NCBI GenBank assembly: GCA_964425305.1
Contig: CAYRMQ010000003.1
Coordinates: 2,162-66,161, forward strand
DNA from: an uncultured Anaerolineaceae bacterium
GTDB lineage: Bacteria > Chloroflexota > Limnocylindria > Limnocylindrales > CSP1-4
DNA: 64,000 nucleotides
Direction: 5' to 3'
A model generated the notes under the pieces. The model made no database searches and was not told the DNA's origin. It was given only the letters and a program-made list of their open reading frames with translations. Of this stretch, positions 11,269-33,246 are shown piece by piece. Each line of letters starts with the position of its first letter. Positions within the stretch are counted from its first letter, which is position 1. Position numbers and translations under genes: made by a program.

Positions 11269-11274
11269 CGTCGC

Positions 11275-14094: not shown

Positions 14095-15369
14095 TCAGTC
14101 GGGTGGCTGCTCCCACGGCGCCGGCGGCTGCTCATCCGGCCGCGGACCGCGCGCCTGGTCCTCCTGGCGCAGGAAGTGGACGAGCTGGTTCTTGCCGCGG
14201 CGCTTGGCCTCGAACATCGCCAGATCGACGCGGCGCATCAGCTCCGCGCTCGTCCGCCCGTCGTCGGGGAAGCTGACCAGGCCGATCGACACCGACGTCT
14301 GCAGCATGTCGCCGTTCTCGCGCAGGGCCAGCCGCGCGATGTCGTAGCGCAGCTTCTCGCCCACACGCTTGGCGCCCTGGAGGTCGGTGTCGGGCAGCAC
14401 GACGACGAACTCGTCGCCGCCGAAGCGGGCGGCGAAGTCGCTCGCCCGGACGCCGCCACGGATGGCGTCGGCCGCCGCCCGCAGCAGGCGGTCGCCGGCC
14501 TCGTGGCCGTAGCGGTCGTTGGCCGCCTTCAGCCCGTCGATGTCGAGCATGAGCAGGCTGAACGGCCGGCCGGTGCGCTGGGCGCGGACGATCTCACGCT
14601 CGATCGCGGCGTCGAAGTAGCCGCGCGTATGGAGCCCGGTCAGGGCGTCGAAGCGCGACAGGCGCAGCGCCGATTCGCGCGCCCGGCGCTGCTCGCGGCC
14701 GATGACCGCGGCCACGTACGAGACGAGCGCGAGAGCGATCAGGTTGAAGCCGACGACACCCAGCTCCGGCTGGCCGATGGGCGGCACCCCCGGCGCGATC
14801 GCAACTGCCACCAGGTAGGCCGCGCTCGACAGCAGCGCGAGGGAGAACGGGACGATGCCCTCGGCCCACAGCGAAGCACCGGCAAGCAGCAGCAGGTAAC
14901 CGAAGAAGAACGGGCTCTGATAACCGCCGCTGAGCACGATCAGCAGCGACACGAAGACGATCGCGGCGACGGCCTCCACCGGATAGCGCAGGCGGCCCAG
15001 CACCGACAAGGGCAGGATGTCCTGGCCGATGACGATCAGGAACGCGCCCATCGCCAGCACGACGTAGGTCAGCGGCTGCTCGGCGAGCCCCGTGATCGTG
15101 ACGACGAAGAGCGCGGACCCGATGAACGAGTAGCTGACGACCCGCACGACGCGCTCGTAGAACCACGGCGACAGCACCGTGCCCTCGTACAGCTCGGACA
15201 GGCGCAGCGGGCCGTTGGCGCCGGTCGGCGGCTGGCCGGTGCCGGCGCCGTTGGGCAGCAGCAGGCCGTTGCGCCGTGCCGCCAGGCGCGGTAGGGCCAG
15301 CGCCGCGAACAGCAGCAGGTTGGCCCCCACGACTAGCGCCAGGAGAACTGCAAGGTGATCGATACGCAC
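14095..15369 (-). CDS. membrane-bound GGDEF-domain diguanylate cyclase
   Basis: About 6 TM helices followed by a canonical GGDEF domain (…RFGGDEFVVVL…, …SVSIGLVSF…). GTG start at 15369 chosen just before TM1; the ORF-track start 15492 would overlap the divergent Lrp gene. Confidence 0.8.
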   Translation of the reverse strand: MRIDHLAVLLALVVGANLLLFAALALPRLAARRNGLLLPNGAGTGQPPTGANGPLRLSELYEGTVLSPWFYERVVRVVSYSFIGSALFVVTITGLAEQPLTYVVLAMGAFLIVIGQDILPLSVLGRLRYPVEAVAAIVFVSLLIVLSGGYQSPFFFGYLLLLAGASLWAEGIVPFSLALLSSAAYLVAVAIAPGVPPIGQPELGVVGFNLIALALVSYVAAVIGREQRRARESALRLSRFDALTGLHTRGYFDAAIEREIVRAQRTGRPFSLLMLDIDGLKAANDRYGHEAGDRLLRAAADAIRGGVRASDFAARFGGDEFVVVLPDTDLQGAKRVGEKLRYDIARLALRENGDMLQTSVSIGLVSFPDDGRTSAELMRRVDLAMFEAKRRGKNQLVHFLRQEDQARGPRPDEQPPAPWEQPPD

Positions 15370-15472
15370 TTTCGGTGGAAGGGGCCGCCCGAAATGGGCG
15401 GCGGATGAGTGACATAGACCCCACCAGTGAACCGATGGTACTAGCCCGATCCGGGATCGGTACCACCTCCAG

Positions 15473-16012
15473 ATGGTTAGTGTCGACCGCATGCAACGGC
15501 CCCCCAGACGCCAGGCCGCCCGCGCCGACGAGCGCCTTTCCGAGCTCGACCGGCAGATAGTCCTGCGCCTGCAGGCCGACGGACGGCGGCCCTACACGCA
15601 GATCGCCACCGAGCTCGGCCTGAGCGAGGCCGCCGTGCGTGCACGCGCAAACAGGCTGATGAGCGAGGGAGTCCTCCAGATCGTGGCCATCCCCGACCCG
15701 CAACGGATGGGCTACGGTCTGATGGCCGTCATCGGCATCAACTGCGACGCCGCCCGCCTGCTCGACGTGGCAGAGGCTGTCTCAGCTCTGCCGGAGGCCG
15801 TCAGAGTTGTGGTGACTGCGGGCACCTTCGACCTGCTCGTCGAGGCCGCCTGCGAGGATCACGACGCGCTGCTCGAGCTGATGACGCGGCGGCTGGGCTC
15901 GATCGAGGGCGTTCAGGGCATGCACACCTTCGTCTACCTGCGCGTCGTCAAGCAGGCCCACCAGTGGGCCGCGCCGGGCGACCTCAGGCGCGCGGGCGGG
16001 CGGCGCGGATGA
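15473..16012 (+). CDS. Lrp/AsnC-family transcriptional regulator
   Basis: HTH (…RPYTQIATELGLSEAAVRARANRL…) plus a RAM/ACT-like C-terminal domain; alternative in-frame ATG at 15491. Divergent from the GGDEF gene. Confidence 0.8.
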   Translation: MVSVDRMQRPPRRQAARADERLSELDRQIVLRLQADGRRPYTQIATELGLSEAAVRARANRLMSEGVLQIVAIPDPQRMGYGLMAVIGINCDAARLLDVAEAVSALPEAVRVVVTAGTFDLLVEAACEDHDALLELMTRRLGSIEGVQGMHTFVYLRVVKQAHQWAAPGDLRRAGGRRG

Positions 16013-16799
16013 TGACGCTGTGCATGCCCGGCACGACCTCGTGCGTCGGCGTCAGGAGCACGCCGGTCAGGCCGGCGGCGGTAAGGCCCGCCTCGTACTC
16101 GGCGAACGAGAGCGCGCCGGCGATGCAGCCGGCGTAGGAGCCGCGGCGGGTACGTTCGGCGGCGCTGAGCGCATCGTCGGCGACGATGTCGGTGATGCCG
16201 ATCCGGCCGCCGGGACGGAGCACGCGCGCGATCTCGCCGAAGACGGCCTGCTTGTCGGCGGCCCGGTGGATGACGCAGTTGCTGATGACGACGTCGACCG
16301 ACTCCGCCGGCAGCGGGATCGATTCGATCTGCCCCTTGACGAAGTCGACGTTGGTGAGCCCGGCCTCGACGGCATTCGCGCGCGCGAGGGCGAGCATCTC
16401 GTCGGTCATGTCGAGGCCGATGGCGCGACCGCTGGGCCCGACGCGCCGCGCCGACAGCAATACGTCGATGCCGCCGCCCGAGCCGAGGTCGAGTACGACT
16501 TCGCCGGCATTCAGCTCGGCGACGGCGGTCGGGTTGCCGCAGCCGAGGGAGGCCATCACGGCGGCATCGGGCAGCTCGGCGCGCTGGACGGCATCGTACA
16601 GCCCGGCGCCGATGGCGGCCGAGCCGCAGCAGCTCGTGCTCTCGCTCGCAGGGAGCTGTGCGCCGGCATTGGTGGCGGGCGCGCAGCAGGCGGTCGCCTC
16701 GGTGGTGCAGCAAGCTGCGCTGTCGGTGCTGCCATCGAGGACGCGCAAGGCGGCGTCGGCGTAGTGACGCCGAACGGTTTCGTGGACGGACGAGGCCAT
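15984..16799 (-). CDS. arsM: arsenite S-adenosylmethionine methyltransferase (ArsM/Cyt19-like)
   Basis: SAM-MTase core (…VLDLGSGGGIDV…) preceded by a Cys-rich segment (…SAACCTTEATACCAP…) typical of ArsM. Start at ATG 16799 with AAAGGAAG Shine-Dalgarno; the ORF-track N-terminal extension is rejected. Confidence 0.8.
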   Translation of the reverse strand: MASSVHETVRRHYADAALRVLDGSTDSAACCTTEATACCAPATNAGAQLPASESTSCCGSAAIGAGLYDAVQRAELPDAAVMASLGCGNPTAVAELNAGEVVLDLGSGGGIDVLLSARRVGPSGRAIGLDMTDEMLALARANAVEAGLTNVDFVKGQIESIPLPAESVDVVISNCVIHRAADKQAVFGEIARVLRPGGRIGITDIVADDALSAAERTRRGSYAGCIAGALSFAEYEAGLTAAGLTGVLLTPTHEVVPGMHSVIIRAARPRA

Positions 16800-16843
16800 A
16801 GTGCTTCCTTTCATTCCGAGCCAGATCCACTGTATTGGCGGTG

Positions 16844-16861
16844 TATTGACCATTGTCAATA
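16844..16861. promoter_or_regulatory. candidate ArsR operator: perfect inverted repeat TATTGAC-catt-GTCAATA in the arsM/arsR divergent intergenic region
   Basis: Seen directly; it lies in the only AT-rich stretch between the arsM start (16799) and the arsR start (16871/16889). ArsR/SmtB repressors bind dyad-symmetric operators overlapping their promoters. Confidence 0.4.
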
Positions 16862-16870
16862 TAGACGGCG

Positions 16871-17221
16871 GTGAATATACTCGGTTCCATGACTCGCGGC
16901 AAGGACCCCGACGCACGCCTGCTGCAGGCCGCCGCCGACCCTATCCGGCTGCGCATCCTGCGCCAGCTGGCCGACCTCGGGTCAGTCTGCGCCTGCGACA
17001 TCGCCGCCGGACAGGCCGTCACCCAGCCGACGGTCTCGCACCACCTGCGCGTGCTGCGCGAGGCGGGCTGGATCAGCGGCGAGCGTCGTGGAACGTGGAT
17101 CTGGTACTCGCTGCGGCCGGAGGCCGCCGAGCGGCTGCGCGACATCGCCGATGCGCTGAGCCCGGCCGGTGGCCCCCAGCCGCGGCTGCCGCGGCTGCGC
17201 GTCGTCCAGCCGAGCGCCTAG
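16871..17221 (+). CDS. arsR: ArsR/SmtB-family metalloregulatory repressor
   Basis: wHTH with the metal-site-like ELCVCDL variant …SVCACDIAAG… and …TVSHHLRVLREAGWI…; alternative start ATG 16889. Confidence 0.8.
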   Translation: MNILGSMTRGKDPDARLLQAAADPIRLRILRQLADLGSVCACDIAAGQAVTQPTVSHHLRVLREAGWISGERRGTWIWYSLRPEAAERLRDIADALSPAGGPQPRLPRLRVVQPSA

Positions 17222-17225
17222 CGGA

Positions 17226-18524
17226 TTACTTCGCCGGGAAGATCGACGGGAAGCGGTCCTCGTGCCCGCCGGCCAGCTCGGCCGCAGCGGCCGCGTCGAG
17301 CGCCTCGAGCAGCTGCCGGGTGCCGCCCATGCCGAACTTGTACTGCTCGTAGTAGGCGCGCATGCCGTTCCAGAAGGCAGTCGCGCCGACGCGCTTGCGG
17401 TAGTCGTCCAGGTAGTTGCCGCCCTGCACGTAGATGACCTCGAAGTAGCACTTCGCGCCGTAGTCGTAGAGGCTGCCGTCGAGGCGGTCCTGCGCGCACT
17501 TGGATCCGCGCCTGGCCGACAGCAGGTTGCGCGCCAGGAAGTCGGCCGGCGCCTCGTCGGCGTATGGCTCCGCCGCCTGGTCGCTGCCGATGATCGCGTA
17601 GAACCACATGTGTGCCGTCTCATGGGCGACCAGGTAGGGAATGTTGCCCTTCTTCGTCGAGCCCGGGATCCAGATCAGACCGGGGGATTCCATGCCCGTC
17701 CCGCCCTCGGTCTGTGAGATCGAGAAGTGCGGGTACGGGTACGGGCCAACCTTGTTGCTGAAGCGCTTGAGCGAGCGCTTGGCCCACTTCATCGTCCGAG
17801 TCACCGGCAGCGTCGTGTAGTAGAGGCGAATCCTGATGCCGTTCTGCGTGCCCTTGGCGATCTTGTAGCGCGGGCTGGCGGAGAAGTTGAAGTCGCGGAC
17901 GTCGCGCGCCAGGAACGTCTGGGTCAGTCCGTCGACGCCGGTCCGCTTGCCGGTCGTCGCATAGGTCAGCTTTCTGTCGCTGGTGACGGCGACGCGCACC
18001 TCGGAGCTAACGCCGGTGACGAAGGGATCGCCGAAGTTCGGTCGCTTGAACTTCACGCCTCGACTCAGCCAGGGGATCCAGCGGTAGGCGGTGACCACCT
18101 TGTTGAGCTTGGCGAACATCCAGTTCTTGTCCTTGCTGTTGGTGCGGAATGTCGCCGCGTAGGCGATCGTCACGGCCGCCTCGCTTTCCGGCTCGAGCGG
18201 GACGGGCAGCGCCAGGATCAGCGTCTGCCCCGACTTCGCGGTCTCGGCCGGCACGTCGTCGACGAGCACCTGCTCCAGCACGAAGCTGCCGATCTTGACG
18301 GGCAGCGCGTTGAAGATGAGCGCGTCGACCGCCTCGGCGGTGCCGTTGCGCACGAAGGCGGTGCTGCGCACGCGGAGCGTGCCCGGCTTGAAGCCGAGCT
18401 CGGCGGTCACGTCATAGCGTGCCGACAGGCCGATGCTGCTCGCCGCCGCCGCGGGCCGTGGAAAGGCGCCGCCGGTCAGCACGACAGCCGCGGCGAGGAG
18501 GGGAGCGACGAGGCGCAGCCTCAT
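17226..18524 (-). CDS. secreted zinc metallopeptidase (M1-like; HExxH …LVAHETAHMWFY…)
   Basis: Signal-peptide-like N-terminus MRLRLVAPLLAAAVVLTGGAFPRPAAAA, HEXXH plus a downstream Glu region. Lys/Asn/Tyr-rich with visibly lower GC than neighbours. Confidence 0.75.
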   Translation of the reverse strand: MRLRLVAPLLAAAVVLTGGAFPRPAAAASSIGLSARYDVTAELGFKPGTLRVRSTAFVRNGTAEAVDALIFNALPVKIGSFVLEQVLVDDVPAETAKSGQTLILALPVPLEPESEAAVTIAYAATFRTNSKDKNWMFAKLNKVVTAYRWIPWLSRGVKFKRPNFGDPFVTGVSSEVRVAVTSDRKLTYATTGKRTGVDGLTQTFLARDVRDFNFSASPRYKIAKGTQNGIRIRLYYTTLPVTRTMKWAKRSLKRFSNKVGPYPYPHFSISQTEGGTGMESPGLIWIPGSTKKGNIPYLVAHETAHMWFYAIIGSDQAAEPYADEAPADFLARNLLSARRGSKCAQDRLDGSLYDYGAKCYFEVIYVQGGNYLDDYRKRVGATAFWNGMRAYYEQYKFGMGGTRQLLEALDAAAAAELAGGHEDRFPSIFPAK

Positions 18525-18662
18525 GGGCACGCGGTCGAGTTCGGCGAGCAGTGGGCGACCCTCTAGCCTGTGTCTGCCGGGAACCCCCTGAGCAAAGCGC
18601 ATCGAGCAGGCCGCTGCCAAGGCGCGGTCGAGTACCGCGGGCAGGCGTACCTTCTTCCCACG

Positions 18663-20963
18663 TCAGCCGGATCTGCCGTACGCCCTGGCCGTCCCATCGG
18701 CCGACGGCGAGCGCCGGCCGCGCGTGTCGGCCGCCTCCTCGGTGAAGTGCGGCAAGGCGAAGCCGAACTCGGCGCCGCCCTCCGCTCGCTGCCGCGCCCA
18801 GACGCGTCCGCTCATCGCGCCGACCAGACCCTTGCACACGAACAGTCCGATGCCGGCGCCCTGTGGCGTGCGCGTGCCTGGCGATCGGTAGTAGAGCGTG
18901 AACAGCTTGTCGGCCTCGTCGGGCCGGATGCCGGGGCCGTCGTCGACGACCCGGAACTGGACCTCGTCGCGGCCACTGCGGACCTCGACGTCGACCGTCG
19001 CCTTCGCGCCTGCGTACTTGGCCGCGTTGGAGAGCAGGTTGCGCACGATCAGCGTCAGGTACTCCTCGTCGGCGGCGACGAGCGGCAGGCCGTCGGCAAT
19101 CGACAGGTTGATCGTCATCTCCGGCCACAGCGGGCGCTCGCGGGCGACGACGTCGGTGAGCAGCGGCTTGACGGTCACCGGCCGCGGCTCGAAGAACTTG
19201 GCGCCGCGTTCGACGCGCGCCAGCACGAGCAGGTTCTCGATGATTTGCTGCAGCCGTTCCGACTCGGCGGCGATACCGCCGAGCAGCTCGAGGCGATCCT
19301 CGGCGGCCATCCGCCCGTCGCGTTTGAGCAGCAGCTGCGTGCCGCCGTAGATGGCCGTGATGGGTGTGCGCAGCTCGTGCGAGAGGATGCCCAGGAAGTG
19401 ATCGCGCAGCAGGCTCGCCTCGTGGCGCCAGGAGGCATCGGAGACGACGGCCAGCTCGTACGGCCGGCCCTCCAGCTGGAACGGCGTCAGCGCCACGTCC
19501 GCCGGGAAGGCCGCGCCGTCGAGCCGGTAGCCCGTCGCCTCGAGCCGGCGCGTCCCGTCCTCGCTGGACCCTTCGCCGGCCAGCGGTGCGTCGAGCTGGA
19601 TCAGCTCGTTGAGCGCCATGCCGTGCAGGCGGCCGGCGGTGCCGCCGAACAGCTCGGCCGTCGGGACCGTCGCCCACACCACCGTGCCCTCGGCGTCGGC
19701 GGCCAGTACCGCGTTGGGATGAGCCTGCAGCAGCGCGCGGAAACGGGTCTCGCTGGCGCGCACGGCGGCTGCCGCCTCGAGCTCCCGCCGCGCGTCGGCG
19801 AGCTGAACGATCGCCTCCTCGCGCTCCACCGCGCGGTAGGTCATCAGCCCCAGAAGCCCGAGCACCTCGAGGTCGTCCTCGACGAACAGCGGCCTGCCCT
19901 CCAGCTGCGTGGCCAGCGTCGCACGCAGCCTGCCGCCGGTGGCGATCGGTACGCGCGCGTTCGTCAACCGCCGCCGGCTCGGGGCCGCCCGGGTCGGCTC
20001 GTCGGTCGGCGCCTGCTCGGTCGGCGCCTGCTCGGTCGGCGCCTGCTCGGCCGCCGCCTGCTCGGCCGACGCCTGCTCGGCCTCCGCCAGCATGCCGCCC
20101 GAGGCATCGGTGATCGTCACCTTGCGCACGCCAAGGAGCCCCCGCGCGGTCTCGGCGAGGTTGCGCCACAGCAGCTCTGGCTCCGCGCCGGCGCTCGCGG
20201 TCACGAGATCACGCGCCAGGTCAAACGCCACCGCCCGATGGCCGGCCGTGCGCAGCCAGCCGGGTGGCACGAACGCGCCGAGGTAGCCAATCCCGGCGAG
20301 CAGGGCGGTGGTGCGCGCGATGAACAGGACCGACGGGTCCTGCTCGCCGCCCAGTGTTGCCGCGGCGCCGACTGCGGCGACCAGGATCGCGGCACCGAAC
20401 AGCCCGGTCGAAACGCCGGCCAGCGCCAGCCGGATACGCGCGATCCCGTAGCGGCGCTGGCTCTCACCGAGGAGGAGCATGGCGGCGGCGCCCTCGGCGA
20501 CGATGAAGTAGCCGCCGACGTAGAGGAGCGCCGGCACCGTCCGCTCAGGCGGCAGCAGGATGGCTGCCGCGGCGCTGACGAAGCCGATGGCCGCGAGCAT
20601 GAGCACCCAGCGGGCGATGGGCATGATCAGGCTGATGAGGACGAAGATCAGCACCGGCTGCGACAGCAGCAGCAGGATGGCCAGCGGCTGCAGGGCGTCG
20701 GCGATTCCGGGCGCAAAGCCGTCGACGACCGAGATCGCGAAGATCGCGGCGGTCGTGGCGAAGACGCCGACGACGGCCAGCTCGACGGTGCCCGGCCGGC
20801 GCACGTAGCGCCAGATCGCCGCCGCGAAGACCGCGAAGAAGGCAAGCTGAAGGAGAGAGTTGACGACGTTCACGCGCCCCCTGCCGTGTGGCCGGTCTGC
20901 ATCGGCGCTGCACAGATTGCCGCCGGCCGGACAGCCAGCGGCTTTGCCGGCCATTATGGCCAC
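18663..20963 (-). CDS. membrane sensor histidine kinase (multi-TM N-terminus, low-complexity linker, PAS, HisKA, HATPase_c)
   Basis: H-box …[15 protein letters not shown]… and N/G boxes (…LLSNAAKYA…, …DDGPGI…, …GAGIGLFV…). Possible alternative GTG start at 20873 just before TM1. No cognate response regulator adjacent. Confidence 0.8.
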
Positions 20964-21005
20964 GCTCCGCGGCGGCTCAGGCCGGCGGGAGGTTACAGAC
21001 CTCTT

Positions 21006-25976: not shown

Positions 25977-28900
25977 ATGTTCCTCGACAGCGTCCGCGGG
26001 CCAAGGCCAGGGCTCCAGGCGGTTGAACCACCGGCGTATGCTCGCGGGGTGCAGATCGGCGTGTTGGGGACGCTCGAAGCGCACACCGACGGCGTCTCTG
26101 TTCGGTTAGGGGGGCCGAAACAGCGGACGGTCCTGGCAATCCTGGTTGCCGAGGGGGGACGGTCGGTTCCGATCGACCGTCTCGTCGATCTCGTTTGGGG
26201 CGAGGAGCCGCCGACGGGCGCCAGGAGCACGCTTCACACCTACATCTCGAATCTGCGTGCCGCGCTTGGCGACGTCGTCGTGCGCGACGGCGGTGGCTAT
26301 CGCCTCGACCTGCCGCGGGAGGCAGTCGACGCGTTTCGCTTCGAGGACGACGTTGCGCGCGCCAGGGAGACAAGAGATTCGCAGCCACTGGAGGCGGCTC
26401 AGCGGTTGCGGGAGGCGCTGAAGTTGTGGCGGGGTCGGCCGTATGCCGACGTGTCCGACTCGCCTTTCCTGGAGCAGGAGGCCCGGCGCCTGGAGGAGCT
26501 GCGCTTGACGGCCATCGAGAACCGCGTCGACGCCGAGCTGGCGCTGGGCAACCACGCCGAGCTGGTCGGTGAGCTCGAGGTGCTCACGGCCGAGAATCCT
26601 CTGCGCGAGCACCTGCGCGCGGCGCACATGCTGGCGCTGTACCGTGCGGGTCGCCAGGCGGAGGCGCTTCGCGCCTACCATAAGACGCGCACGCTGCTGG
26701 CCGAGGAGCTGGGCATCGATCCCTCGCCCGCCCTGCAGGAGCTCGAGGGCAAGATCCTGCGCCAGGACCACTCGCTCGACCTGGAGAGCGAGCCTCGCGT
26801 CGAGACGCTCGTCTTCCTGCTGTCCGACATCGAGGACTCAACCGTCCTGTGGGAACTGCACCAGCGCGAGATGGGTCCTGCCGTGGCGCTGTACGACGCG
26901 ATCGTCAGCGAGGCGGTCGAGGGAGCTGGCGGACGAGTGGTCAAGCGCGTGGGCGACGGCCTCGACGCCGTGTTCTCTGACGCGGGCGGCGCGGTGGTCG
27001 CCGCGCGTGAGGCGCAGCGGGCGCTGCAACGGGGGACCTGGGGCGAAACGGGTCCGCTCAAGGCTCGCATGGCGATCGATGTCGGCGAAGTAGAGGCGCG
27101 AGGAGGTGGATACTTCGGCCCTGTCCTCAATCGCTGCGGTCGGATCCTGGCCTCCGGTCACGGCGGGCAGATCCTTCTCTCGGCCGAGGCGCATGCCGCG
27201 CTGTCGGGCGCGCAGGCGGGCTGGCAGGTCCGCGCACTGGGCGAGTTCCGCTTCAAGGGCCTGGGCCGTCCGCAACGCGTCTTCCAGCTACTGGTTGACG
27301 ACCTGCCGACGGAGTTTCCCGAGCTGCGCATCGACCGACTGCCGGCGACGGCCAGGATCAGCGTCGAGCGAGCCGTGCGGGGCTACGAGCTGCGCGAGCA
27401 GGTGGGAGGGGGAGACTTCGGCGTCGTTTACCGCGCCTACCAGCCGGCGGTCGGCCGCGAGGTGGCGGTCAAGGTCATTCGGCCCGAGTTCGTCAATCAG
27501 CCCTCCTTCGTGCGCCGCTTCGAGAGCGAAGCGCAGATGGTGGCCCAGCTCGAGCACCCCCACATCGTGGCGCTCTACGACTACTGGCGGGATCCCGATG
27601 GCGCTTACCTTGTCATGCGCTGGCTGCGCGGGGGCGCGCTGAGTGACGCGCTCGATCGCGGACCCTGGCACCTCGAGCCGGCTTCACGGCTGCTGGCGCA
27701 GGTCGGCTCGGCTCTCGCCTACGCCCATCGCCAGGGGATCGTGCATCGCGACCTCAAGCCGGGCAACGTGCTGCTCGACGAGGAGGGCAACGCCTACCTG
27801 TCGGACTTCGGCGTGGCGGCGCGCCTGGTCGACGCATCCGAGTCGGGTCGGCCGGTCTCCTCGTCGCCCGCCTATGTGACACCCGAGGAGCTGCGGGGCG
27901 AGCCGCTGCGCGCGCCGTCGGACATCTTCGCGCTGGGGCTGCTTACGTTCGAGTTGCTCTCTGGTCGCCGCCCACCGATGGACCGCTCCCTCCCCTCGCT
28001 CAGGCGGCTGCGACCAGAGCTGCCCGAAGGAATCGACGAGATCATCGCTCGCGCGACGGCCGATCAACCGGCGGCCCGCTACTCAACGGTGGACGGGTTC
28101 CTGGCAGCGTTCCTCGACGTGCTGGGCCAGGCTCCGGTGGCCGAGGAAGCCGGCTTCACGCCAACACGCAACCCGTACAAGGGGCTGCAGGCCTTCAGCG
28201 AGTTCGACGAGCAGGACTTCCATGGTCGGCAGGGGTTGATCGAGGAGCTGACCGAAGCGCTCAAGAAGCACCGTTTCCTGGCCGTCGTGGGGCCCTCGGG
28301 CATCGGCAAGTCATCTGTCGTGCGCGCTGGGCTGGTGCCGGCGCTACGCGCCGGCGCGTTGCCCGGATCCCGTGATTGGCTGGTAACCGACATGTTCCCC
28401 GGCTCCTATCCCTTCGAGGAGCTGGAGGCCGCGTTGCTGCGCATAGCCGTCGAGCGCCCGGTGGGCATGACCGAGGATCTGGCTCGGGACGAACGCGGCA
28501 TCCTGCGCGTCAGCAAGCGCATCCTGCCGACCAGCGCGCAGGCGATGCTCGTCATCGACCAGTTCGAGGAGCTGTTCACGCTGACCTCCGACGAGGAGAC
28601 GCGCCGGCTTTTCCTCGATGCGCTCGCCACACTGGTCACCGACCCGCGTTCCAGGATGCGCGTGGTCATCACCCTGCGCGCTGACTTCTTCGACCGTCCC
28701 CTGCGCTACCGAGCCTTCGGGGACCTGCTGCGTGACAGGATGGTAGCCGTCACCGCGCCCGGCGAAGGAGAGCTGACTGCCGCCATCGTCAGGCCGGCGG
28801 AGGCCGTTGGCGTGCGCTTCGAGGCCGGTCTCGTCGACCGCATCATCACTGACGTCAGTAGTCAGCCGGGCGCACTGCCGCTGCTGCAGTATGCGCTGAC

Positions 28901-31900
28901 CGAGCTCTTTGCCTCGCGCACCTCCGACCTGCTGACCGTTCACGGCTACCAGGCTTCGGGGCGCGTGCTGGGCGCGCTTGGACGACGGGCTGAGGAGCTC
29001 TACGAGTCGCTCGATGAGGATGGCCGAGAGGCCGCTCGGCAGGTGTTCCTGCGCCTGGTGGCAGTCAGCGAGGTGGGCGAGGACACGCGCCGGCGCGTCC
29101 GCCACCAGGAGCTCGACGCGCTGGGAGTGGATGCGCTGACTCTCGACGAGGTGCTGCGCCGATACGGCGAGTACCGGCTGCTGACCTTCGATCGCGACCC
29201 GCTGACCCGCGGGCCCACGGTGGAAGTGGCCCACGAGGCGCTGCTGACCGAGTGGCATCGGCTGCGCGACTGGATCGCCGAGCGGCGTGAGGACCTGCTG
29301 CTCCAGAGACGCCTGGCCGATGCCCTTGGCGAGTGGGAGCAGGCCGGCCGGGATGCCTCATACCTGCTGAGCGGCGGGCGGCTGCAGCAGTTCGCCGCCT
29401 GGGCGGACGGCACCGACCTTGCCTTGACCACCCAAGAGCGCGAGTACCTGCACGACAGCGAGGCTGCCGAGGCAGAGCGCAGGCGCCTCCAGCGGCGCCG
29501 GCGGCGAGCCATCATGGCCGGCTTCGGCGCAGCCGCAGCCCTGTCGCTGGTCCTCGCTGCGGTCGCATATCTCAACGAACGCCAAGCGCTGCACAACGAG
29601 CAGCTGGCGCACGCTCGAGAGCTGGCCGCAGCGGCGATCAGCGTCCGCGACACCGATCCTGAACTGAGCATCCTCCTGTCGATCGCGGCGCACGAGGCGG
29701 CGCCCGACGGCGAGGCGCCGCCGCGCGAAGTCGTGTCAGTCCTCCACCAGACGGTCCGCTCCAGCCGGATGCTTGTCAGCCGGCCGTGGGAGGCTGACTT
29801 CGGGCTCAGCTGGTCGCCACTGGGCGGCTCGTTGAGTCCTGACGGGACGCTGGTCGCCGCCAGCGGCTGGTCCGACACTCTGCAGGTGTGGGACGCAGCC
29901 ACCGGCGAGGTGCGCTGGGAGCTGCGGGACGATGAGAGCGGCGGCTGGTTCTGGTGGCCCCAGTTCAGCCCGGACGGCTCAAGGCTGGTGGTGGCCTTCA
30001 GCCGCTACTGGGAAGAAGGCCGCCGAGTCGACGGCGGCCTGGCCGCCGGCATCTACTTCTTCCACTCGCGCAACGGGGAGTTGTTGGACATGCTGCCGCC
30101 GCCGACGGAATGCGACTGGGTTGGAATGGCGGGACCTAATGCACTCAGCCTCGACGGCAACCACCTGATCCGCCTGGTCGATCGAGGCGGCGAAGACCCC
30201 GAGACGGGGTGTTACTCCTACGAAGGGCCTGAGAACAACCCCCTGGCGACGCGGGAACTCGAGGTAGTCGATATCCGTACGCTCGAAGTCGTCTATCGCA
30301 CCGACGTGACCTACCCGTACGGCGAGAACCGCGGCCATGGGCAGGCGGGCGTGGACATCGCCGGCAACCGGCTGATCGTGGGAGACCTGTCCGGTGATCA
30401 TGGAACGACGCGCATGATCGACCTCGTCGACGGCAGCGTGCTCTGGGAAAGGGCGGCTGTCGGCGGCTTTCTCAGTCCCGATGGCTCGGTGGCGGCGCTG
30501 GCCGGCGGCGGCGCAGCCCAGCGGCGTATCGAGCTCGTCGATCCTGCGACGGGCGACCTACTGGGCGAGCTGGTTGGCCACAGAGCGCATACCGACGCCG
30601 TGGTCTTCAGCCGCGACGGCCGGCTCGCCTACTCGGCAGGCATGGACGGGACGGCTCGGGTGTGGGACGTGGCCACTGGCGAGAACCTGCTGACCCTCGG
30701 TGGTGACAAGCAAGGCTTGATATCTCTGTCGCCGGACGAAAGTGGCGCGAGATTGGCCACATTCGGGTTCGACGGCAACACCCGGATGTGGGACCTGACC
30801 GCGCAGCCCCTGACCGAGGTGGGGACCGCGATCGATCTGCGCCCCGCGCAGGTCGCCCTAAGGGGCATCATGGCAAGCGGTGGTCTGGCGACTGTCGCCG
30901 GTTTCCTTGGAGAATGCCCCGACCAGGAAGGGTTCTCCATCGTCTTCAATGCCGAGACCGGCACGACCATGCGACGCTTCACCGACTCGGCCGGCCAGAT
31001 GGAGGCGTTGCTACCCGACGGTACGGGCGTCCTCCACCAGCTGCTTGTGCTGTACGGGCCGGAGATCAGCTGCGCCGACGAGATCCTTGGCCCGCTCGTC
31101 ATCCGCGATCTGACGAGCGGCGAGACACGCATCGAGCTGGAGGGCTGGTGCGAGTGGGCGGATCCCGGCGACTGCGCCTCCCCGCCTGAAGTGCCGTACG
31201 CCGACTTCGTAAACGCACTGGCCGTGTCCGATGACGGGAGAATTGCCGTCGCCGGTGGCCCCAGCGGTGCGGCGTCGATCTGGGACGTGCACGAAGGCTC
31301 CCTGCACGGGACGATAGGACCATTCCAGGGTGAGGGGTGGATCCAGGGCGTCGCCGTCCACCCGGACGGGAGAACCGCGGTCGTAACCAGCTCTGAGGCC
31401 CTTTACATCGTGGACCTCGACAGTGCGCTGAACATACGGCAGGAGCTGCGGAGTCACCACGGCTTCGTCGCCTTCAATCCCGGTGGATCACTGCTCGCCG
31501 TTGGCGAACCCCGCCTGACGATGTACCGAACCGAGGATTGGGAGGTCATGTGGGAGGTGGATGCTCACGATGGCGGGGTTCCCCACCTCGGCTTCAGCCC
31601 GGACGGGACTGCCCTCGTGACCACCGGCCCGGACGGCTTCGTGCGCCTGTGGAGCGCGACTGACGGCAACCTGCTGCAGGTCGTTCCACTGGGCGACGAT
31701 TGGGCCAAGGCGGTGGCCTTCGTCAACGAGCGGCACGTGCTCATAGGTACGTCCAATGGCCTGGTGGTCGGCCTCACCTTCGACGTCGACGAGCTCGTCG
31801 AGATCGGCCGCTCCCGGGTGACTCGTTCGCTGACCGATCAGGAGTGCCGGACGTACCTGCGCATCGACGAGTGCCCGTCAGACATGGAGACGACCGCGTC

Positions 31901-31907
31901 TCAGTAG
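25977..31907 (+). CDS. 1976-aa multidomain signalling protein: SARP wHTH+BTAD / class III nucleotide cyclase / Ser-Thr protein kinase / STAND P-loop NTPase / single TM helix / WD40 beta-propeller
   Basis: Single uninterrupted ORF. Approximate domain coordinates: SARP 26049..26771 (…YRLDLPREAVDAFRFEDDV…, BTAD …ELRLTAIENRVDAELALGNHAELVGELE…); cyclase 26799..27311 (FLLSDIEDST, KRVGDG, GPVLNRCGRI); kinase 27378..28136 (GGGDFGVVY, VAVK, HRDLKPGNVLL, DFG); NTPase 28164..28976 (NPYKGLQAFSEFDEQDFHGRQ, Walker A GPSGIGKSS, Walker B MLVIDQFEE); TM 29508..29573 (AIMAGFGAAAALSLVLAAVAYL); WD40-like repeats 29769..31904. Confidence 0.85.
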   Translation: MFLDSVRGPRPGLQAVEPPAYARGVQIGVLGTLEAHTDGVSVRLGGPKQRTVLAILVAEGGRSVPIDRLVDLVWGEEPPTGARSTLHTYISNLRAALGDVVVRDGGGYRLDLPREAVDAFRFEDDVARARETRDSQPLEAAQRLREALKLWRGRPYADVSDSPFLEQEARRLEELRLTAIENRVDAELALGNHAELVGELEVLTAENPLREHLRAAHMLALYRAGRQAEALRAYHKTRTLLAEELGIDPSPALQELEGKILRQDHSLDLESEPRVETLVFLLSDIEDSTVLWELHQREMGPAVALYDAIVSEAVEGAGGRVVKRVGDGLDAVFSDAGGAVVAAREAQRALQRGTWGETGPLKARMAIDVGEVEARGGGYFGPVLNRCGRILASGHGGQILLSAEAHAALSGAQAGWQVRALGEFRFKGLGRPQRVFQLLVDDLPTEFPELRIDRLPATARISVERAVRGYELREQVGGGDFGVVYRAYQPAVGREVAVKVIRPEFVNQPSFVRRFESEAQMVAQLEHPHIVALYDYWRDPDGAYLVMRWLRGGALSDALDRGPWHLEPASRLLAQVGSALAYAHRQGIVHRDLKPGNVLLDEEGNAYLSDFGVAARLVDASESGRPVSSSPAYVTPEELRGEPLRAPSDIFALGLLTFELLSGRRPPMDRSLPSLRRLRPELPEGIDEIIARATADQPAARYSTVDGFLAAFLDVLGQAPVAEEAGFTPTRNPYKGLQAFSEFDEQDFHGRQGLIEELTEALKKHRFLAVVGPSGIGKSSVVRAGLVPALRAGALPGSRDWLVTDMFPGSYPFEELEAALLRIAVERPVGMTEDLARDERGILRVSKRILPTSAQAMLVIDQFEELFTLTSDEETRRLFLDALATLVTDPRSRMRVVITLRADFFDRPLRYRAFGDLLRDRMVAVTAPGEGELTAAIVRPAEAVGVRFEAGLVDRIITDVSSQPGALPLLQYALTELFASRTSDLLTVHGYQASGRVLGALGRRAEELYESLDEDGREAARQVFLRLVAVSEVGEDTRRRVRHQELDALGVDALTLDEVLRRYGEYRLLTFDRDPLTRGPTVEVAHEALLTEWHRLRDWIAERREDLLLQRRLADALGEWEQAGRDASYLLSGGRLQQFAAWADGTDLALTTQEREYLHDSEAAEAERRRLQRRRRRAIMAGFGAAAALSLVLAAVAYLNERQALHNEQLAHARELAAAAISVRDTDPELSILLSIAAHEAAPDGEAPPREVVSVLHQTVRSSRMLVSRPWEADFGLSWSPLGGSLSPDGTLVAASGWSDTLQVWDAATGEVRWELRDDESGGWFWWPQFSPDGSRLVVAFSRYWEEGRRVDGGLAAGIYFFHSRNGELLDMLPPPTECDWVGMAGPNALSLDGNHLIRLVDRGGEDPETGCYSYEGPENNPLATRELEVVDIRTLEVVYRTDVTYPYGENRGHGQAGVDIAGNRLIVGDLSGDHGTTRMIDLVDGSVLWERAAVGGFLSPDGSVAALAGGGAAQRRIELVDPATGDLLGELVGHRAHTDAVVFSRDGRLAYSAGMDGTARVWDVATGENLLTLGGDKQGLISLSPDESGARLATFGFDGNTRMWDLTAQPLTEVGTAIDLRPAQVALRGIMASGGLATVAGFLGECPDQEGFSIVFNAETGTTMRRFTDSAGQMEALLPDGTGVLHQLLVLYGPEISCADEILGPLVIRDLTSGETRIELEGWCEWADPGDCASPPEVPYADFVNALAVSDDGRIAVAGGPSGAASIWDVHEGSLHGTIGPFQGEGWIQGVAVHPDGRTAVVTSSEALYIVDLDSALNIRQELRSHHGFVAFNPGGSLLAVGEPRLTMYRTEDWEVMWEVDAHDGGVPHLGFSPDGTALVTTGPDGFVRLWSATDGNLLQVVPLGDDWAKAVAFVNERHVLIGTSNGLVVGLTFDVDELVEIGRSRVTRSLTDQECRTYLRIDECPSDMETTASQ

Positions 31908-32524
31908 CCGCGTTCTCGTAGCCGGTCACCCATCACCCGGGCGGCTTGCGCGCGGTGCGAGATGGCGTTCTTCTCGGCGGCACTCAGCTGACCCACCGTT
32001 CGGCCGCCCATCGGCTCGTCGGCCGGCTCGAAGACGGGGTCATAGCCGAAGCCGCCGGTGCCCCGCGGCTCTAGCGCGATGCGCCCCTCGAAGACACCGT
32101 TGGTCTGGGTCAGCCGCGGCTCTTCATCCTCGCCCGGCTCGGCGAGGACCAGCACGCAGCGGTAACGCGCCGTCCGCTCGGCCGGCGGCACTCCGTCCAT
32201 CTCGCGCAGCAGCAGGGCATTGTTCTCCGCATCGGTCGCCGTCGCGCTGGCGTAGCGGCGGGTGTGCACGCCGGGCCGGCCGTCGAGCGCGTCGACCTCC
32301 AGGCCCGAGTCGTCGGCCAGCGTCGGCAGGCCGGATTGTCGGGCGTAATGAAGTGCCTTGGCCGTGGCGTTCTGCTCGAATGTCTCGCCGTCCTCGGTCG
32401 CGTCGTCGGCCAGCCCGGCGTCGGCCAGCGAGACGACCTCCGTCCGCGGCAGGTCGAGCAGCGCGCGCAGCTCATCCAGCTTGTGCTGTGAACCGGTGGC
32501 GATCAGCAGACGACGGCCGCTCAC
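31901..32524 (-). CDS. rdgB: non-canonical purine NTP pyrophosphatase (dITP/XTP pyrophosphatase, Ham1/RdgB)
   Basis: …[14 protein letters not shown]…, …FGYDPVF…, …[14 protein letters not shown]…; GTG start overlaps the rph stop (GTGA). The 403-aa ORF 31901..33112 is a mis-extended version. Confidence 0.85.
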
Positions 32525-33246
32525 TCGTTGCCGAGTACCGTCCGCTGCATCGAGAACAGCTGCTGCAGCCCGCCGTCCGCCAGCTCGAGCAGGCTGTCCA
32601 TCGACGCCCGGTCGAAGGGCTTGCCCTCGGCCGTCCCCTGGACCTCGACATACGTCCCGCGGTCCGTGCCGACGACGTTGAAGTCGACCTCCGCCCGCGA
32701 GTCCTCGGAGTAGTCGAGGTCGAGCAGCGGCACGCCGTCGACGACGCCGACGCTGACGGCCGCGATCTGGCCGTCGAGGGCGCCCTCGGCGCCGATCTTG
32801 CGCAGCGCCAGCGCCAGCGCGATGTAGCCGCCGGTGATCGAGGCCGTGCGCGTGCCGCCGTCCGCCTGCAGGACATCGCAGTCGACGGTCACCGTCCGCT
32901 CGCCGAGCTTGGCGGTGTCGACCACGCCGCGCAGCGCCCGCCCGATGAGCCGCTGGATCTCCATCGTTCGCCCGCCCTGGCGGCCCTTGACGACCTCGCG
33001 CTGGGTTCTCTCCGAGGTGGCGCGGGGCAGCATGTTGTACTCGGCCGTCACCCAGCCGACGCCCTTGCCGCGCAGGTGCGGCGGGATGCGGTCCTCGATC
33101 GTCGCCGCGCACAGCACGCGTGTGTCACCCATCTCGATCGTGCACGAGCCCTCGGCCCACTTCTGGACGTCGAGCGCGAAACGAACCGGCCGCAGCTGGC
33201 GCGGTGAGCGCCCGTCGGTGCGGAAGCGGCCGCCCGCGATGCTCAC
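32521..33246 (-). CDS. rph: ribonuclease PH
   Basis: …[13 protein letters not shown]…, …[12 protein letters not shown]…, …[19 protein letters not shown]…; 241 aa from an in-frame GTG. The ORF-track version 32521..33993 carries a non-homologous Arg-rich extension. Confidence 0.85.

What the first reader, a model, noticed from the sequence alone, without database searches (positions are those of the whole stretch)
29508..29573. Single predicted TM helix splits the giant protein: cytoplasmic enzymatic modules versus an apparently extracytoplasmic WD40 propeller
An Arg-rich stop-transfer-like stretch (RRRLQRRRRRA) is followed by a 22-residue hydrophobic segment (IMAGFGAAAALSLVLAAVAYL). This lies between the STAND/helical region and about 700 aa of WD40-like repeats. 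With only one TM helix the propeller would lie on the opposite side of the membrane from the kinase/cyclase/DNA-binding modules. That would be unusual for a SARP-type DNA binder and suggests either a membrane-tethered transcription factor or a mis-predicted buried helix
Basis: inference. Interest (0 to 1): 0.55.

Follow-up and report, generated by a model that had tools for sequence, protein, structure and literature searches.

The report
Membrane-spanning helix in giant STAND receptor
The hydrophobic stretch is most likely a real single membrane-spanning helix, shared by most relatives, that puts the protein's double-propeller sensor outside the cell and its enzymes and DNA-binding head inside; the layout is already listed in published tables but has never been tested.

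Summary
Residues 1178-1199 (nt 29508-29573) of a 1976-aa ORF (25977..31907, +) form the protein's only strongly hydrophobic segment, directly after RRRLQRRRRR.

On this sequence alone the segment is not statistically exceptional: 17% of shuffles reach the same hydropathy. Across the family it is decisive. A segment of this kind sits at the same place in 194 of 202 nSTAND1 homologues. It is an uncharged run of median 23 residues, with 5.7 K/R upstream against 3.0 downstream. None of 1305 control windows in the same proteins reaches hydropathy 2.0.

AlphaFold2 puts it in the middle of one 71-residue helix linking the STAND NTPase to two seven-bladed WD40 propellers. All DNA-binding, kinase and cyclase modules lie N-terminal of it. 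Only propellers or periplasmic-binding-protein domains lie C-terminal. The post-helix part carries 8 cysteines in four pairs that co-vary among close homologues; the 1177 residues before it carry one.

Best reading: a single-pass receptor with N-terminus in and C-terminus out, that is, a membrane-tethered SARP/kinase/STAND protein.

Novelty is limited. Source data of Kaur et al. 2021 already list "nSTAND1+TM+BetaPropeller" and "wHTH+TPRs+Pkinase+nSTAND1+TM+BetaPropeller". Topology and function remain experimentally untested.

The parts
25977..31907 (+). Whole gene: 1976-aa multidomain protein (SARP, cyclase-like, Ser/Thr kinase, nSTAND1 NTPase, TM helix, double WD40 propeller)
   Evidence: Single uninterrupted ORF; domain hits
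26112..26759 (+). SARP DNA-binding module: OmpR-type winged helix (res 46-110) plus BTAD (res 117-261)
   Evidence: Pfam Trans_reg_C 33.4 bits (cut-off 26.2) and BTAD E 2e-45; partial match to the NCBIfam AfsR model
26796..27269 (+). Divergent class III nucleotidyl cyclase-like domain (res 274-431)
   Evidence: PF00211 20.3 bits, just under the 21.9 cut-off; weak match to the NCBIfam LipJ cyclase model; candidate metal Asp and Asn/Arg motifs read by eye
27384..27980 (+). Hanks-type Ser/Thr protein kinase domain (res 470-668) with VAVK, HRDLKPGN and DFG motifs
   Evidence: Pkinase E 4e-46; motif positions
28173..29357 (+). nSTAND1 STAND NTPase module (res 733-1127); Walker A GPSGIGKSS (772-780), Walker B LVIDQFEE (858-865)
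   Evidence: PF20703 E 3e-119, 399 bits; motifs; fold nearest Apaf-1, ORC/Cdc6, NB-ARC and Avs3
29430..29642 (+). Single continuous 71-residue alpha helix (res 1152-1222) joining the NTPase module to the propeller module and containing the TM segment
   Evidence: Same helix in two independent AlphaFold2 models: H25-95 of the 1128-1976 model and H420-490 of the 733-1330 model, block pLDDT 81-98
29478..29507 (+). Arg-rich cytoplasmic flank RRRLQRRRRR (res 1168-1177), the positive-inside determinant
   Evidence: 8 K/R in the 15 upstream residues; family mean 5.7 K/R upstream against 3.0 downstream, upstream greater in 183 of 194; position 1177 is R in 89% of aligned sequences
29508..29573 (+). 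Predicted transmembrane helix AIMAGFGAAAALSLVLAAVAYL (res 1178-1199): the finding itself
   Evidence: KD19 2.20, hydrophobic moment 0.08; 21 consecutive alignment columns with no charged residue in 54-55 sequences; present in 194 of 202 homologues
29658..29762 (+). Conserved helical cap (res 1228-1262, includes the D-P-E-L-S-I-L-L motif) that precedes the first propeller
   Evidence: Helices 101-114 and 123-135 of model 1; conserved columns D1227, P1228, E1229
29769..31778 (+). Two tandem seven-bladed WD40 beta-propellers (res about 1265-1934; 56 strands, 14 blades), predicted extracytoplasmic
   Evidence: AlphaFold2 pLDDT 86, pTM 0.78; Foldseek top hits are 2ymu (a 'highly repetitive propeller structure'), Pwp2, Aip1 and Apaf-1; WD40 Pfam hits
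30111..31874 (+). Eight cysteines in four sequential pairs (1379/1412, 1647/1699, 1725/1733, 1957/1966), candidate disulfides
   Evidence: 8 Cys in 777 aa after the TM against 1 in the 1177 aa before it; the pairs are present or absent together in the close homologues P0121-P0124
31815..31877 (+). Family-conserved C-terminal motif RVTRSLTDQECRTYLRIDECP (C-x8-C)
   Evidence: C-x8-C spacing in 65 of 71 homologues that have exactly two post-TM Cys; both Cys present in 72 of 75 aligned sequences

Best explanation
Residues 1178-1199 form a genuine single transmembrane helix, oriented N-terminus in and C-terminus out. This makes the protein a bitopic membrane receptor. The first 1177 residues are cytoplasmic: SARP DNA-binding head, cyclase-like domain, Ser/Thr kinase and nSTAND1 NTPase. 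The last 777 residues sit outside the membrane: a helical cap and two seven-bladed WD40 propellers stapled by up to four disulfides. The two halves are joined by one rigid 71-residue helix whose middle third crosses the bilayer.

Shown by computation:
- the segment exists;
- it is conserved family-wide as a hydrophobic block of bilayer-spanning length with positive-inside asymmetry;
- it is a lone connector helix in the models;
- domain types segregate strictly on either side of it.

Inferred:
- topology, from the need of the N-terminal modules for ATP and DNA, the charge bias and the cysteine pattern;
- mechanism. Binding of an external ligand by the propellers changes clustering or helix packing. 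This allows ATP-dependent oligomerisation of the nSTAND1 modules under the membrane. Oligomerisation brings together outputs that work as dimers or oligomers: SARP side-by-side dimers on DNA, kinase trans-phosphorylation and class III cyclase dimers.

The SARP head would then act either while tethered, as in ToxR and CadC, or after proteolytic release. The evidence does not distinguish these two.
For: Sequence: KD19 of 2.20, the only segment above 1.6, hydrophobic moment 0.08, additive insertion energy near 0 kcal/mol against at least +4 for any other segment.

Family: 194 of 202 homologues have the segment about 31 residues after the NTPase module. The uncharged run has a median of 23 residues (5-95%: 21-30). 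K/R is greater upstream than downstream in 183 of 194. Control windows: 0 of 1305 reach 2.0. Twenty-one alignment columns have no charged residue and are bounded by R in 89% of sequences.

Taxonomic spread: most of 30 genomic loci examined carry it, from Acidimicrobiia, Chloroflexota, Cyanobacteria, Streptomyces, Mycobacterium and Planctomycetes.

Structure: two AlphaFold2 models give the same 71-residue helix, 1152-1222, with no partner helices.

Domain segregation: every significant SARP, XRE, GerE, kinase or cyclase hit lies N-terminal of the helix. C-terminal parts are propellers or, in P0088, P0096 and P0113, a Peripla_BP_4 domain.

Cysteines: 1 before the helix against 8 after it. The four pairs co-vary in close homologues. 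Post-TM Cys counts are even in 87 of 106 homologues, against 73 of 154 for the pre-TM parts.

TM-less relatives carry a charged helix (EREAQRQRELEAAQ...) in its place, so the position is an exposed connector.

Published tables independently annotate 'TM' at this position.
Against: No dedicated topology predictor and no experiment was available.

I could check neither contacts of the helix nor distances between paired cysteines.

On the single sequence the hydropathy peak is reached by 17% of shuffles. The helix is Ala/Gly-rich and only borderline by the additive insertion scale, whose values I recalled from memory.

The TM-less relative P0182 keeps the terminal C-x8-C pair, so that pair alone does not prove an oxidising compartment.

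Overall Cys density differs little between the two halves across the family: 0.32 against 0.42 per 100 aa.

In the published tables about as many nSTAND1 proteins are listed with a propeller and no TM as with a TM. Homologous WD40 sensors therefore also work in the cytoplasm.

Canonical WD40 repeats outside the cytoplasm are uncommon.

The signalling mechanism is entirely inferred.
Confidence: 0.8

Rival explanations
1. The hydrophobic helix is not in a membrane. It is buried in a soluble assembly, for example as the core of a helical bundle formed when the STAND protein oligomerises, and the whole protein is cytoplasmic like classical NLR and Apaf-1 proteins.
For: The closest solved folds, Apaf-1 and Avs3, are cytosolic STAND proteins with WD40 or repeat sensors. 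TM-less relatives with the same propellers exist. The helix is Ala-rich and only borderline by additive insertion energy. The literature on these proteins discusses recognition inside cells.
Against: A 21-30-residue block with no charged residue on any face. A narrow, bilayer-like length distribution. A one-sided K/R excess in 183 of 194 homologues. Hydrophobic moment 0.08. No partner helices in either model. TM-less relatives place a fully charged helix at the same position, which a conserved buried core would not tolerate. Paired, co-varying cysteines lie only on the C-terminal side.
Confidence: 0.07
2. The helix is a real TM helix, but the outside propellers are not a ligand sensor. They serve as an anchor or scaffold, for example binding cell wall or positioning the protein, while the cytoplasmic modules are regulated by other inputs such as ATP level or phosphorylation.
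For: No ligand is known. WD40 propellers are generic scaffolds. The neighbouring genes are housekeeping and give no hint of a signal. AfsR-type SARP-NOD proteins are regulated by ATP binding.
Against: In three homologue clusters the propellers are replaced by a sugar-type periplasmic binding protein domain, a typical ligand sensor. In STAND proteins the C-terminal repeat region is generally the sensor; this is established knowledge of the family and is also described in the paper read.
Confidence: 0.1
3. The stretch is a compositional accident of a long Ala/Leu/Val-rich, high-GC protein and has no specific role.
For: 345 of 2000 shuffles of the protein reach the same hydropathy maximum, and 249 of 2000 reach the same uncharged run length.
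Against: Positional conservation in 96% of 202 homologues and across at least six phyla, against 0 of 1305 control windows.
Confidence: 0.01

Closest known systems
nSTAND1 proteins with the architecture 'nSTAND1+TM+BetaPropeller', including 'wHTH-4stranded+TPRs+Pkinase+nSTAND1+TM+BetaPropeller' (HBY06929.1, Chloroflexi), listed in Kaur, Iyer, Burroughs and Aravind 2021, eLife 10:e70394, Figure 2 source data 1
   Same: Same NTPase family (PF20703, E 3e-119). Same order of SARP-type wHTH+BTAD, kinase, nSTAND1, TM and propeller.
   Different: The window protein has an extra, sub-threshold cyclase-like domain between SARP and kinase. It sits among housekeeping genes rather than next to a TIR+DrHyd effector gene. 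In my term searches the paper's main text names the clade but says nothing about the TM helix or its topological consequence.
Apaf-1 (STAND NTPase with two WD40 propellers; PDB 3sfz, 3shf)
   Same: Best structural match for both the NTPase half and the double-propeller half. Same overall logic: effector, then NOD, then tandem propellers.
   Different: Apaf-1 is soluble, and its propellers contact the NOD directly to hold it inactive. Here a membrane would separate them, so that kind of autoinhibition cannot operate. Blade count is 7+7 here, against 7+8 in Apaf-1 (the latter from my own knowledge). The NTPase belongs to a different clade (nSTAND1, not AP-ATPase).
Streptomyces AfsR ('large' SARP: SARP + NOD + TPR) and its kinase AfsK
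   Same: An N-terminal SARP head fused to a STAND-type NTPase and a repeat sensor. In AfsR, the NOD and TPR inhibit SARP until ATP binds, and SARP works as a side-by-side dimer. The window protein carries the kinase in the same chain.
   Different: AfsR is soluble, with an NB-ARC-type NOD and TPR repeats. The NCBIfam AfsR equivalog scores 209.6 bits against a cut-off of 1430 and covers only the SARP part.
ToxR/CadC-type membrane-tethered transcription activators
   Same: An OmpR-type winged-helix DNA-binding domain at the cytoplasmic N-terminus, a single TM helix and an extracytoplasmic C-terminal sensor (established knowledge of the family; wHTH hit).
   Different: About 1050 residues of enzymes and a STAND NTPase lie between the DNA-binding head and the membrane. 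There is no homology in the sensor domains. The resemblance is functional, not membership.
Mycobacterial receptor kinase PknD (kinase, TM, extracellular NHL beta-propeller)
   Same: A Hanks kinase inside, one TM helix and a beta-propeller outside (my own knowledge; weak NCBIfam PknD hit).
   Different: The PknD equivalog scores 93.5 bits against a cut-off of 839. The propeller type differs (NHL against WD40), PknD has no STAND NTPase and no DNA-binding domain, and here the TM helix is about 500 residues from the kinase.

Membership tests
nSTAND1 STAND NTPases (Pfam PF20703; Kaur et al. 2021) | Match to the family profile above the curated threshold | tested here: met
   399.4 bits against a cut-off of 27.1; E 3.2e-119; residues 733-1127 cover profile positions 1-378 of 379
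nSTAND1 STAND NTPases (Pfam PF20703; Kaur et al. 2021) | Intact P-loop (Walker A) and Walker B acidic motif | tested here: met
   GPSGIGKSS at 772-780 and LVIDQFEE at 858-865; both are conserved columns in alignment A2
nSTAND1 STAND NTPases (Pfam PF20703; Kaur et al. 2021) | STAND/AAA+-like fold followed by superstructure-forming repeats | tested here: met
   Foldseek hits to Apaf-1, ORC/Cdc6, NRC1 NB-ARC and Avs3; a 14-blade WD40 region follows
nSTAND1 STAND NTPases (Pfam PF20703; Kaur et al. 2021) | Nucleotide-dependent oligomerisation switch | not testable with these tools
   Needs biochemistry
Published architecture class 'nSTAND1+TM+BetaPropeller' | A predicted TM helix between the NTPase module and the beta-propeller | tested here: met
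   Residues 1178-1199; the class is listed in published source data
Single-pass (bitopic) membrane proteins, N-in/C-out | One hydrophobic segment of bilayer-spanning length and no other | tested here: met
   KD19 2.20 over 22 residues; next best 1.51, in beta strands; family median uncharged run 23 residues
Single-pass (bitopic) membrane proteins, N-in/C-out | Positive-inside charge asymmetry | tested here: met
   8 against 2 K/R in the 15-residue flanks here; upstream greater than downstream in 183 of 194 homologues
Single-pass (bitopic) membrane proteins, N-in/C-out | Experimentally determined membrane integration and topology | not testable with these tools
   Would need reporter fusions, fractionation or protease accessibility
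Single-pass (bitopic) membrane proteins, N-in/C-out | Call by a dedicated TM/topology predictor (DeepTMHMM, TOPCONS, Phobius) | not tested
   No such tool was available. Hydropathy, charge-bias and conservation analyses were used instead.
ToxR/CadC-like membrane-tethered transcription activators | Cytoplasmic N-terminal OmpR-type wHTH, single TM, extracytoplasmic C-terminal domain | tested here: inconclusive
   wHTH (Trans_reg_C, 33.4 bits against 26.2) and a single TM are present. DNA binding while tethered was not tested. About 1050 residues intervene. I treat this as 'works like', not as membership.
AfsR-type large SARPs (NCBIfam NF053617) | Full-length equivalog match (SARP + NB-ARC NOD + TPR) | tested here: not met
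   209.6 bits against a cut-off of 1430; only residues 12-271 align
PknD / PknB-type receptor Ser/Thr kinases (NCBIfam NF009651, NF033483) | Equivalog-level match including the extracellular sensor | tested here: not met
   PknD 93.5 bits against 839; PknB-PASTA 213.5 against 450; only the kinase domain aligns
Twin-arginine (Tat) signal / signal anchor | A conserved RR-x-hydrophobic-hydrophobic motif directly before a moderately hydrophobic segment | tested here: inconclusive
   Present here (RR-A-I-M). RR lies within 8 residues upstream in 153 of 194 homologues, but the RRx## pattern occurs in only 87 of 194. Low-GC cyanobacterial members use mixed K/R, sometimes without RR. The pattern is best explained by positive-inside bias plus GC content.
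Known anti-phage defence systems (PADLOC-DB 2.0) | Match of the NTPase or sensor to a defence-system model | tested here: not met
   All 25 listed hits (of 33) centre on the kinase domain, roughly residues 463-801: PD-T4-6, mad6, MkoA, PglW

The most novel reading that the evidence does not exclude
This family would be a 'transmembrane NLR': a STAND/NOD switch whose WD40 sensor sits outside the cytoplasm. An external ligand, such as cell-wall material, a neighbouring cell or a phage at the surface, would be read across the membrane through one rigid helix. It would be converted into ATP-dependent oligomerisation that fires a kinase, a cyclase-like domain and a SARP transcription activator at once. 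A further possibility is release of the 1177-residue cytoplasmic part by intramembrane proteolysis of the Ala/Gly-rich helix. This would be a STAND activation route that cannot rely on direct contact between sensor and NOD.
Probability: 0.3. Interest if true: 0.7.

Novelty: new member of a known kind. Interest (0 to 1): 0.42.

Why it matters
In the papers I read, STAND/NLR-type NTPases are treated as intracellular receptors whose sensor repeats touch and restrain the nucleotide-binding module. A large, phylogenetically broad subfamily with a membrane between sensor and NTPase implies two things. These switches can also read the cell exterior. And they must be activated by something other than direct release of the NOD by the sensor, most simply by ligand-driven clustering.

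For this particular protein it means that a SARP-type activator, a kinase and a cyclase-like domain are probably all controlled from outside the cell by a single polypeptide. That is a compact surface-to-gene signalling route in an uncultured, Acidimicrobiia-like actinobacterium.

The point is catalogued in published tables but was not discussed in the texts I searched. It has not been tested, and simple topology experiments would settle it.

Tried and rejected
- **Exact-sequence look-up of the giant protein.** It is not on record, so no source organism or synteny could be obtained that way.
- **Tat-type internal signal anchor.** Considered because of RR-A-I-M. Set aside because the twin arginine is not conserved in low-GC cyanobacterial members and R outnumbers K by 1019 to 85, which tracks GC content.
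- **Terminal C-x8-C pair as proof of an oxidising compartment.** Weakened because TM-less P0182 keeps the pair.
- **Testing whether TM-less relatives lose the cysteine pairs.** A third database search seeded with a TM-less relative returned only fragments of 575 aa or less, without C-termini. The test failed. It did show that 35 of 37 relatives covering the linker have the TM-like segment.
- **Motif-anchored classification of TM presence.** Noisier than the phmmer-anchored one (141 of 164 against 194 of 202). I rely on the latter.
- **Apparent cyclase, GerE, kinase or SARP hits C-terminal of the TM helix.** All were insignificant secondary envelopes with i-Evalue above 1.
- **PADLOC.** The listed matches were to kinase-domain models only.
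- **Contact analysis of the helix and Cys-Cys distances.** Not possible because model coordinates are not exposed.
- **Literature searches for an explicit discussion of a TM helix between a STAND NTPase and a WD40 sensor.** Nothing found in the main texts searched. It appears only in source-data tables.
Full report
**1. What is there**

The window carries one uninterrupted ORF at 25977..31907 on the + strand, encoding 1976 aa. Pfam and NCBIfam give the following order:

| Module | Residues | Evidence |
|---|---|---|
| OmpR-type winged helix (SARP head) | 46-110 | Trans_reg_C, 33.4 bits against a cut-off of 26.2 |
| BTAD (SARP head) | 117-261 | E 2e-45 |
| Cyclase-like domain | about 274-431 | PF00211 20.3 bits, just under the 21.9 cut-off |
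| Hanks Ser/Thr kinase | 470-668 | E 4e-46 |
| nSTAND1 STAND NTPase | 733-1127 | 399 bits, E 3e-119 |
| WD40-type repeats | to the C-terminus | several WD40 and beta-propeller families |

The kinase motifs (VAVK, HRDLKPGN, DFG) and the Walker A and B motifs of the NTPase are intact.

**2. The observation**

RRRLQRRRRR directly precedes it, at 1168-1177.

- Its best 19-residue Kyte-Doolittle mean is 2.20. It is the only stretch of the protein above 1.6.
- The runner-up scores 1.51, at 1626-1644. It contains an Arg and lies in beta strands of the model.
- The upstream 15 residues hold 8 K/R (net +6). The downstream 15 have net charge 0.
- The hydrophobic moment is 0.08, so the helix is uniformly apolar rather than amphipathic.
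- A rough additive insertion energy, using Hessa-scale values that I recalled from memory, is about 0 kcal/mol. Every other segment scores at least +4.

**3. Is it more than chance?**

Judged from this sequence alone, no. The protein is long and rich in Ala, Leu and Val, and 345 of 2000 shuffles reach a 19-mer of at least 2.2.

The comparative evidence settles it. I anchored 240 database homologues on the NTPase module. Of these, 202 extend at least 60 residues past it.

- 194 of the 202 carry a segment of at least 1.6 in the next roughly 120 residues, and 191 reach 2.0. The median position is 31 residues after the aligned end of the NTPase module.
- In 1305 other 130-residue windows of the same proteins, 9 reach 1.6 and none reaches 2.0.
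- The uncharged run has a median of 23 residues, with a 5-95% range of 21-30.
- K/R count in the flanks averages 5.7 upstream and 3.0 downstream. Upstream exceeds downstream in 183 of 194.
- In alignment A2, 21 consecutive columns (1178-1198) hold no charged residue in 54-55 sequences. Position 1177 is R in 89%, and polar residues follow.
- Most of 30 genomic loci examined also carry the feature. They come from Acidimicrobiia, Chloroflexota, Cyanobacteria, Streptomyces, Mycobacterium and Planctomycetes.

Conserved position, length, apolarity and one-sided positive charge, with only loose sequence conservation, are the signature of a membrane-spanning helix.

**4. Buried helix or membrane helix?**

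Two AlphaFold2 runs were made on different fragments with different alignments.

| Fragment | pLDDT | pTM | Helix in model numbering |
|---|---|---|---|
| 1128-1976 | 86 | 0.78 | H25-95 |
| 733-1330 | 89 | 0.65 | H420-490 |

Both give the same picture: one continuous 71-residue helix, 1152-1222, with the hydrophobic block in its middle. It links the NTPase module to a short helical cap (1228-1262) and then to beta-structure. No neighbouring helices could bury it within a monomer. I could not inspect contacts, because coordinates are not exposed.

A natural experiment supports the same conclusion. The rare TM-less relatives P0182, P0223, P0112, P0270 and P0286 carry a highly charged helix at this position (for example EREAQRQRELEAAQELAETQKARLEEQA). 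The position is therefore an exposed connector, whose surroundings are lipid in one case and water in the other.

**5. Which side is which?**

- *Domain requirements.* The N-terminal modules need DNA and ATP, so they must be cytoplasmic. The charge bias agrees.
- *Domain segregation.* Across the homologues, every significant hit to SARP, XRE-HTH, GerE-HTH, kinase or cyclase lies N-terminal of the helix. The few apparent hits after it have i-Evalues above 1.
- *C-terminal domains.* These are propellers. In three separate clusters (P0088, P0096, P0113) the C-terminal part is instead a Peripla_BP_4 sugar-binding-protein domain behind a GerE-nSTAND1-TM unit.
- *Cysteines in the window protein.* There is 1 Cys in the 1177 residues before the helix and 8 in the 777 after it. 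They form four sequential pairs: 1379/1412, 1647/1699, 1725/1733 and 1957/1966.
- *Co-variation of the pairs.* Among the four closest homologues, 1647 and 1699 are present together in one and absent together in three. The other pairs are always present together.
- *Family-wide counts.* The post-helix part has an even Cys count in 87 of 106 proteins, and exactly two in 71. The pre-helix parts show no such bias (73 of 154 even).
- *The usual pair.* It is a conserved C-terminal motif, R-V/L-T-R-S-L-T-x-E-E-C-x2-Y-L-H-x3-C-P.

This pattern fits disulfides in an oxidising, extracytoplasmic compartment. There are caveats. One TM-less relative keeps the terminal pair. Overall Cys density differs little between the halves, 0.32 against 0.42 per 100 aa.

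**6. The rest of the anatomy**

The C-terminal model has 56 strands, which is 14 blades, or two seven-bladed propellers. Its best structural matches are:

- PDB 2ymu, a 'highly repetitive propeller structure' (which I take to be the Nostoc punctiforme Npun_R6612 WRAP domain described);
- other tandem WD40 propellers such as Pwp2 and Aip1;
- Apaf-1.

The NTPase half is closest to Apaf-1, ORC/Cdc6, a plant NB-ARC domain and Avs3.

The flanking genes are ordinary:

- upstream on the same strand, a metallophosphoesterase and a luciferase-like oxidoreductase;
- convergent downstream, Ham1/RdgB, MazG and a SurA-like PPIase;
- further out, glnA, guaA, pdxS, mreC and ResB.

There is no defence island, no TIR/DrHyd partner gene and no PADLOC match beyond the kinase domain.

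**7. How it most likely works**

*Shown:* the features in sections 1-6.

*Inferred:* the protein is a single-pass receptor with its N-terminus in and its C-terminus out. The disulfide-stapled double propeller is the external sensor. The 71-residue helix is the only physical link across the membrane.

A membrane now lies between sensor and NOD, so Apaf-1-style autoinhibition by direct contact between propeller and NOD cannot apply. The simplest alternative runs as follows.

1. A ligand changes the clustering or packing of the propellers or the helix.
2. This permits ATP-dependent oligomerisation of the nSTAND1 modules under the membrane.
3. Oligomerisation juxtaposes outputs that work in pairs or groups.

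Those outputs are:

- SARP heads, which bind DNA as side-by-side dimers and are restrained by the NOD and repeat region until ATP binds in AfsR;
- Hanks kinases, which trans-phosphorylate (established knowledge);
- class III cyclases, whose active sites form at a dimer interface (established knowledge).

I cannot tell whether the SARP head acts while tethered, as in ToxR and CadC, or after proteolytic release.

**8. Comparison with what is known**

The nSTAND1 clade was named by Kaur et al. 2021. In my term searches their main text does not mention the helix. Their Figure 2 source data do annotate it.

- The string 'nSTAND1+TM' occurs 412 times.
- 'nSTAND1+BetaPropeller' occurs 427 times.
- 'wHTH-4stranded+TPRs+Pkinase+nSTAND1+TM+BetaPropeller' is listed for a Chloroflexi protein. 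That is the window protein's architecture minus the cyclase-like domain.

The other papers I searched mention no membrane between NTPase and sensor. These cover prokaryotic WD40 proteins, the Nostoc WRAP propeller and a 2026 survey of bacterial STAND receptors.

The protein works like three known systems:

- ToxR/CadC, a tethered wHTH activator;
- PknD, with a kinase inside and a propeller outside;
- AfsR/AfsK, a SARP-NOD regulator with its kinase.

It fails their equivalog models and is not a member of any of them.

**9. Verdict**

The 'buried helix' alternative is unlikely.

The case is a new member of an already catalogued but uncharacterised architecture, so novelty is modest. The conceptual point, a STAND switch with its sensor across the membrane, is worth a simple topology experiment.

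Noticed in passing
window 25977-31907 compared with flanking genes: The giant gene has lower third-position GC (0.83) and lower overall GC (68.5%) than its neighbours (GC3 0.89-0.96; window mean 71.7%). The propeller part is lowest, at 66.9%. Possible horizontal origin or weak codon selection.
   Followed up: partly
window 26796-27269 (res 274-431): The 'cyclase' module is only a sub-threshold match to PF00211 (20.3 bits against 21.9; E 4.6e-4). Candidate metal-binding Asp residues and an Asn/Arg pair are visible by eye. Whether it is catalytically active is open.
   Followed up: partly
window 31815-31877; homologues P0125-P0240: A strongly conserved C-terminal tail motif, R-V/L-T-R-S-L-T-x-E-E-C-x2-Y-L-H-x3-C-P (C-x8-C), ends most nSTAND1-TM-WD40 proteins. 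Cyanobacterial members end in a different two-Cys motif (G-C-D-R-V-x-x-Y-L...C). No Pfam family covers it.
   Followed up: partly
homologues P0182, P0223, P0112, P0270, P0286: Rare TM-less relatives replace the hydrophobic helix with a long, highly charged helix (EREAQRQRELEAAQ...) and keep the cap and propellers. This looks like sporadic conversion between membrane-bound and soluble forms.
   Followed up: partly
homologues P0088, P0096, P0113: Variants with GerE (LuxR-type) HTH, nSTAND1, TM and a Peripla_BP_4 sugar-binding-protein domain in place of the propellers. The same chassis apparently reads a small-molecule ligand.
   Followed up: partly
loci L013-L029 (cyanobacteria): In cyanobacterial members the equivalent segment is weaker (KD 1.65-2.3) and rich in Gly, Thr and Ala. 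The upstream flank uses mixed K/R. Standard predictors may miss these, which could explain the many 'nSTAND1+BetaPropeller' entries without TM in published tables.
   Followed up: no
window 31901-31907: The stop codon of the giant gene (31905-31907) overlaps the 3' end of the convergent Ham1/RdgB-type ORF (31901..33112, minus strand). This leaves no intergenic space for a terminator. That ORF's first roughly 200 residues have no Pfam match, so its true start is probably further downstream within the ORF.
   Followed up: no
window 14098-21005, minus strand: Other signalling genes lie nearby: a GGDEF diguanylate cyclase (14098-15591) and a 780-aa histidine kinase (18666-21005). A PucR-type regulator lies at 9703-11274. 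No link to the giant gene was examined.
   Followed up: no
window 57358-59700, minus strand: A 781-aa protein combines a Spore_III_AA-like/NTPase P-loop region with a phosphotyrosine phosphatase domain (PF25516) and an R3H domain. This is an unusual combination and was not pursued.
   Followed up: no
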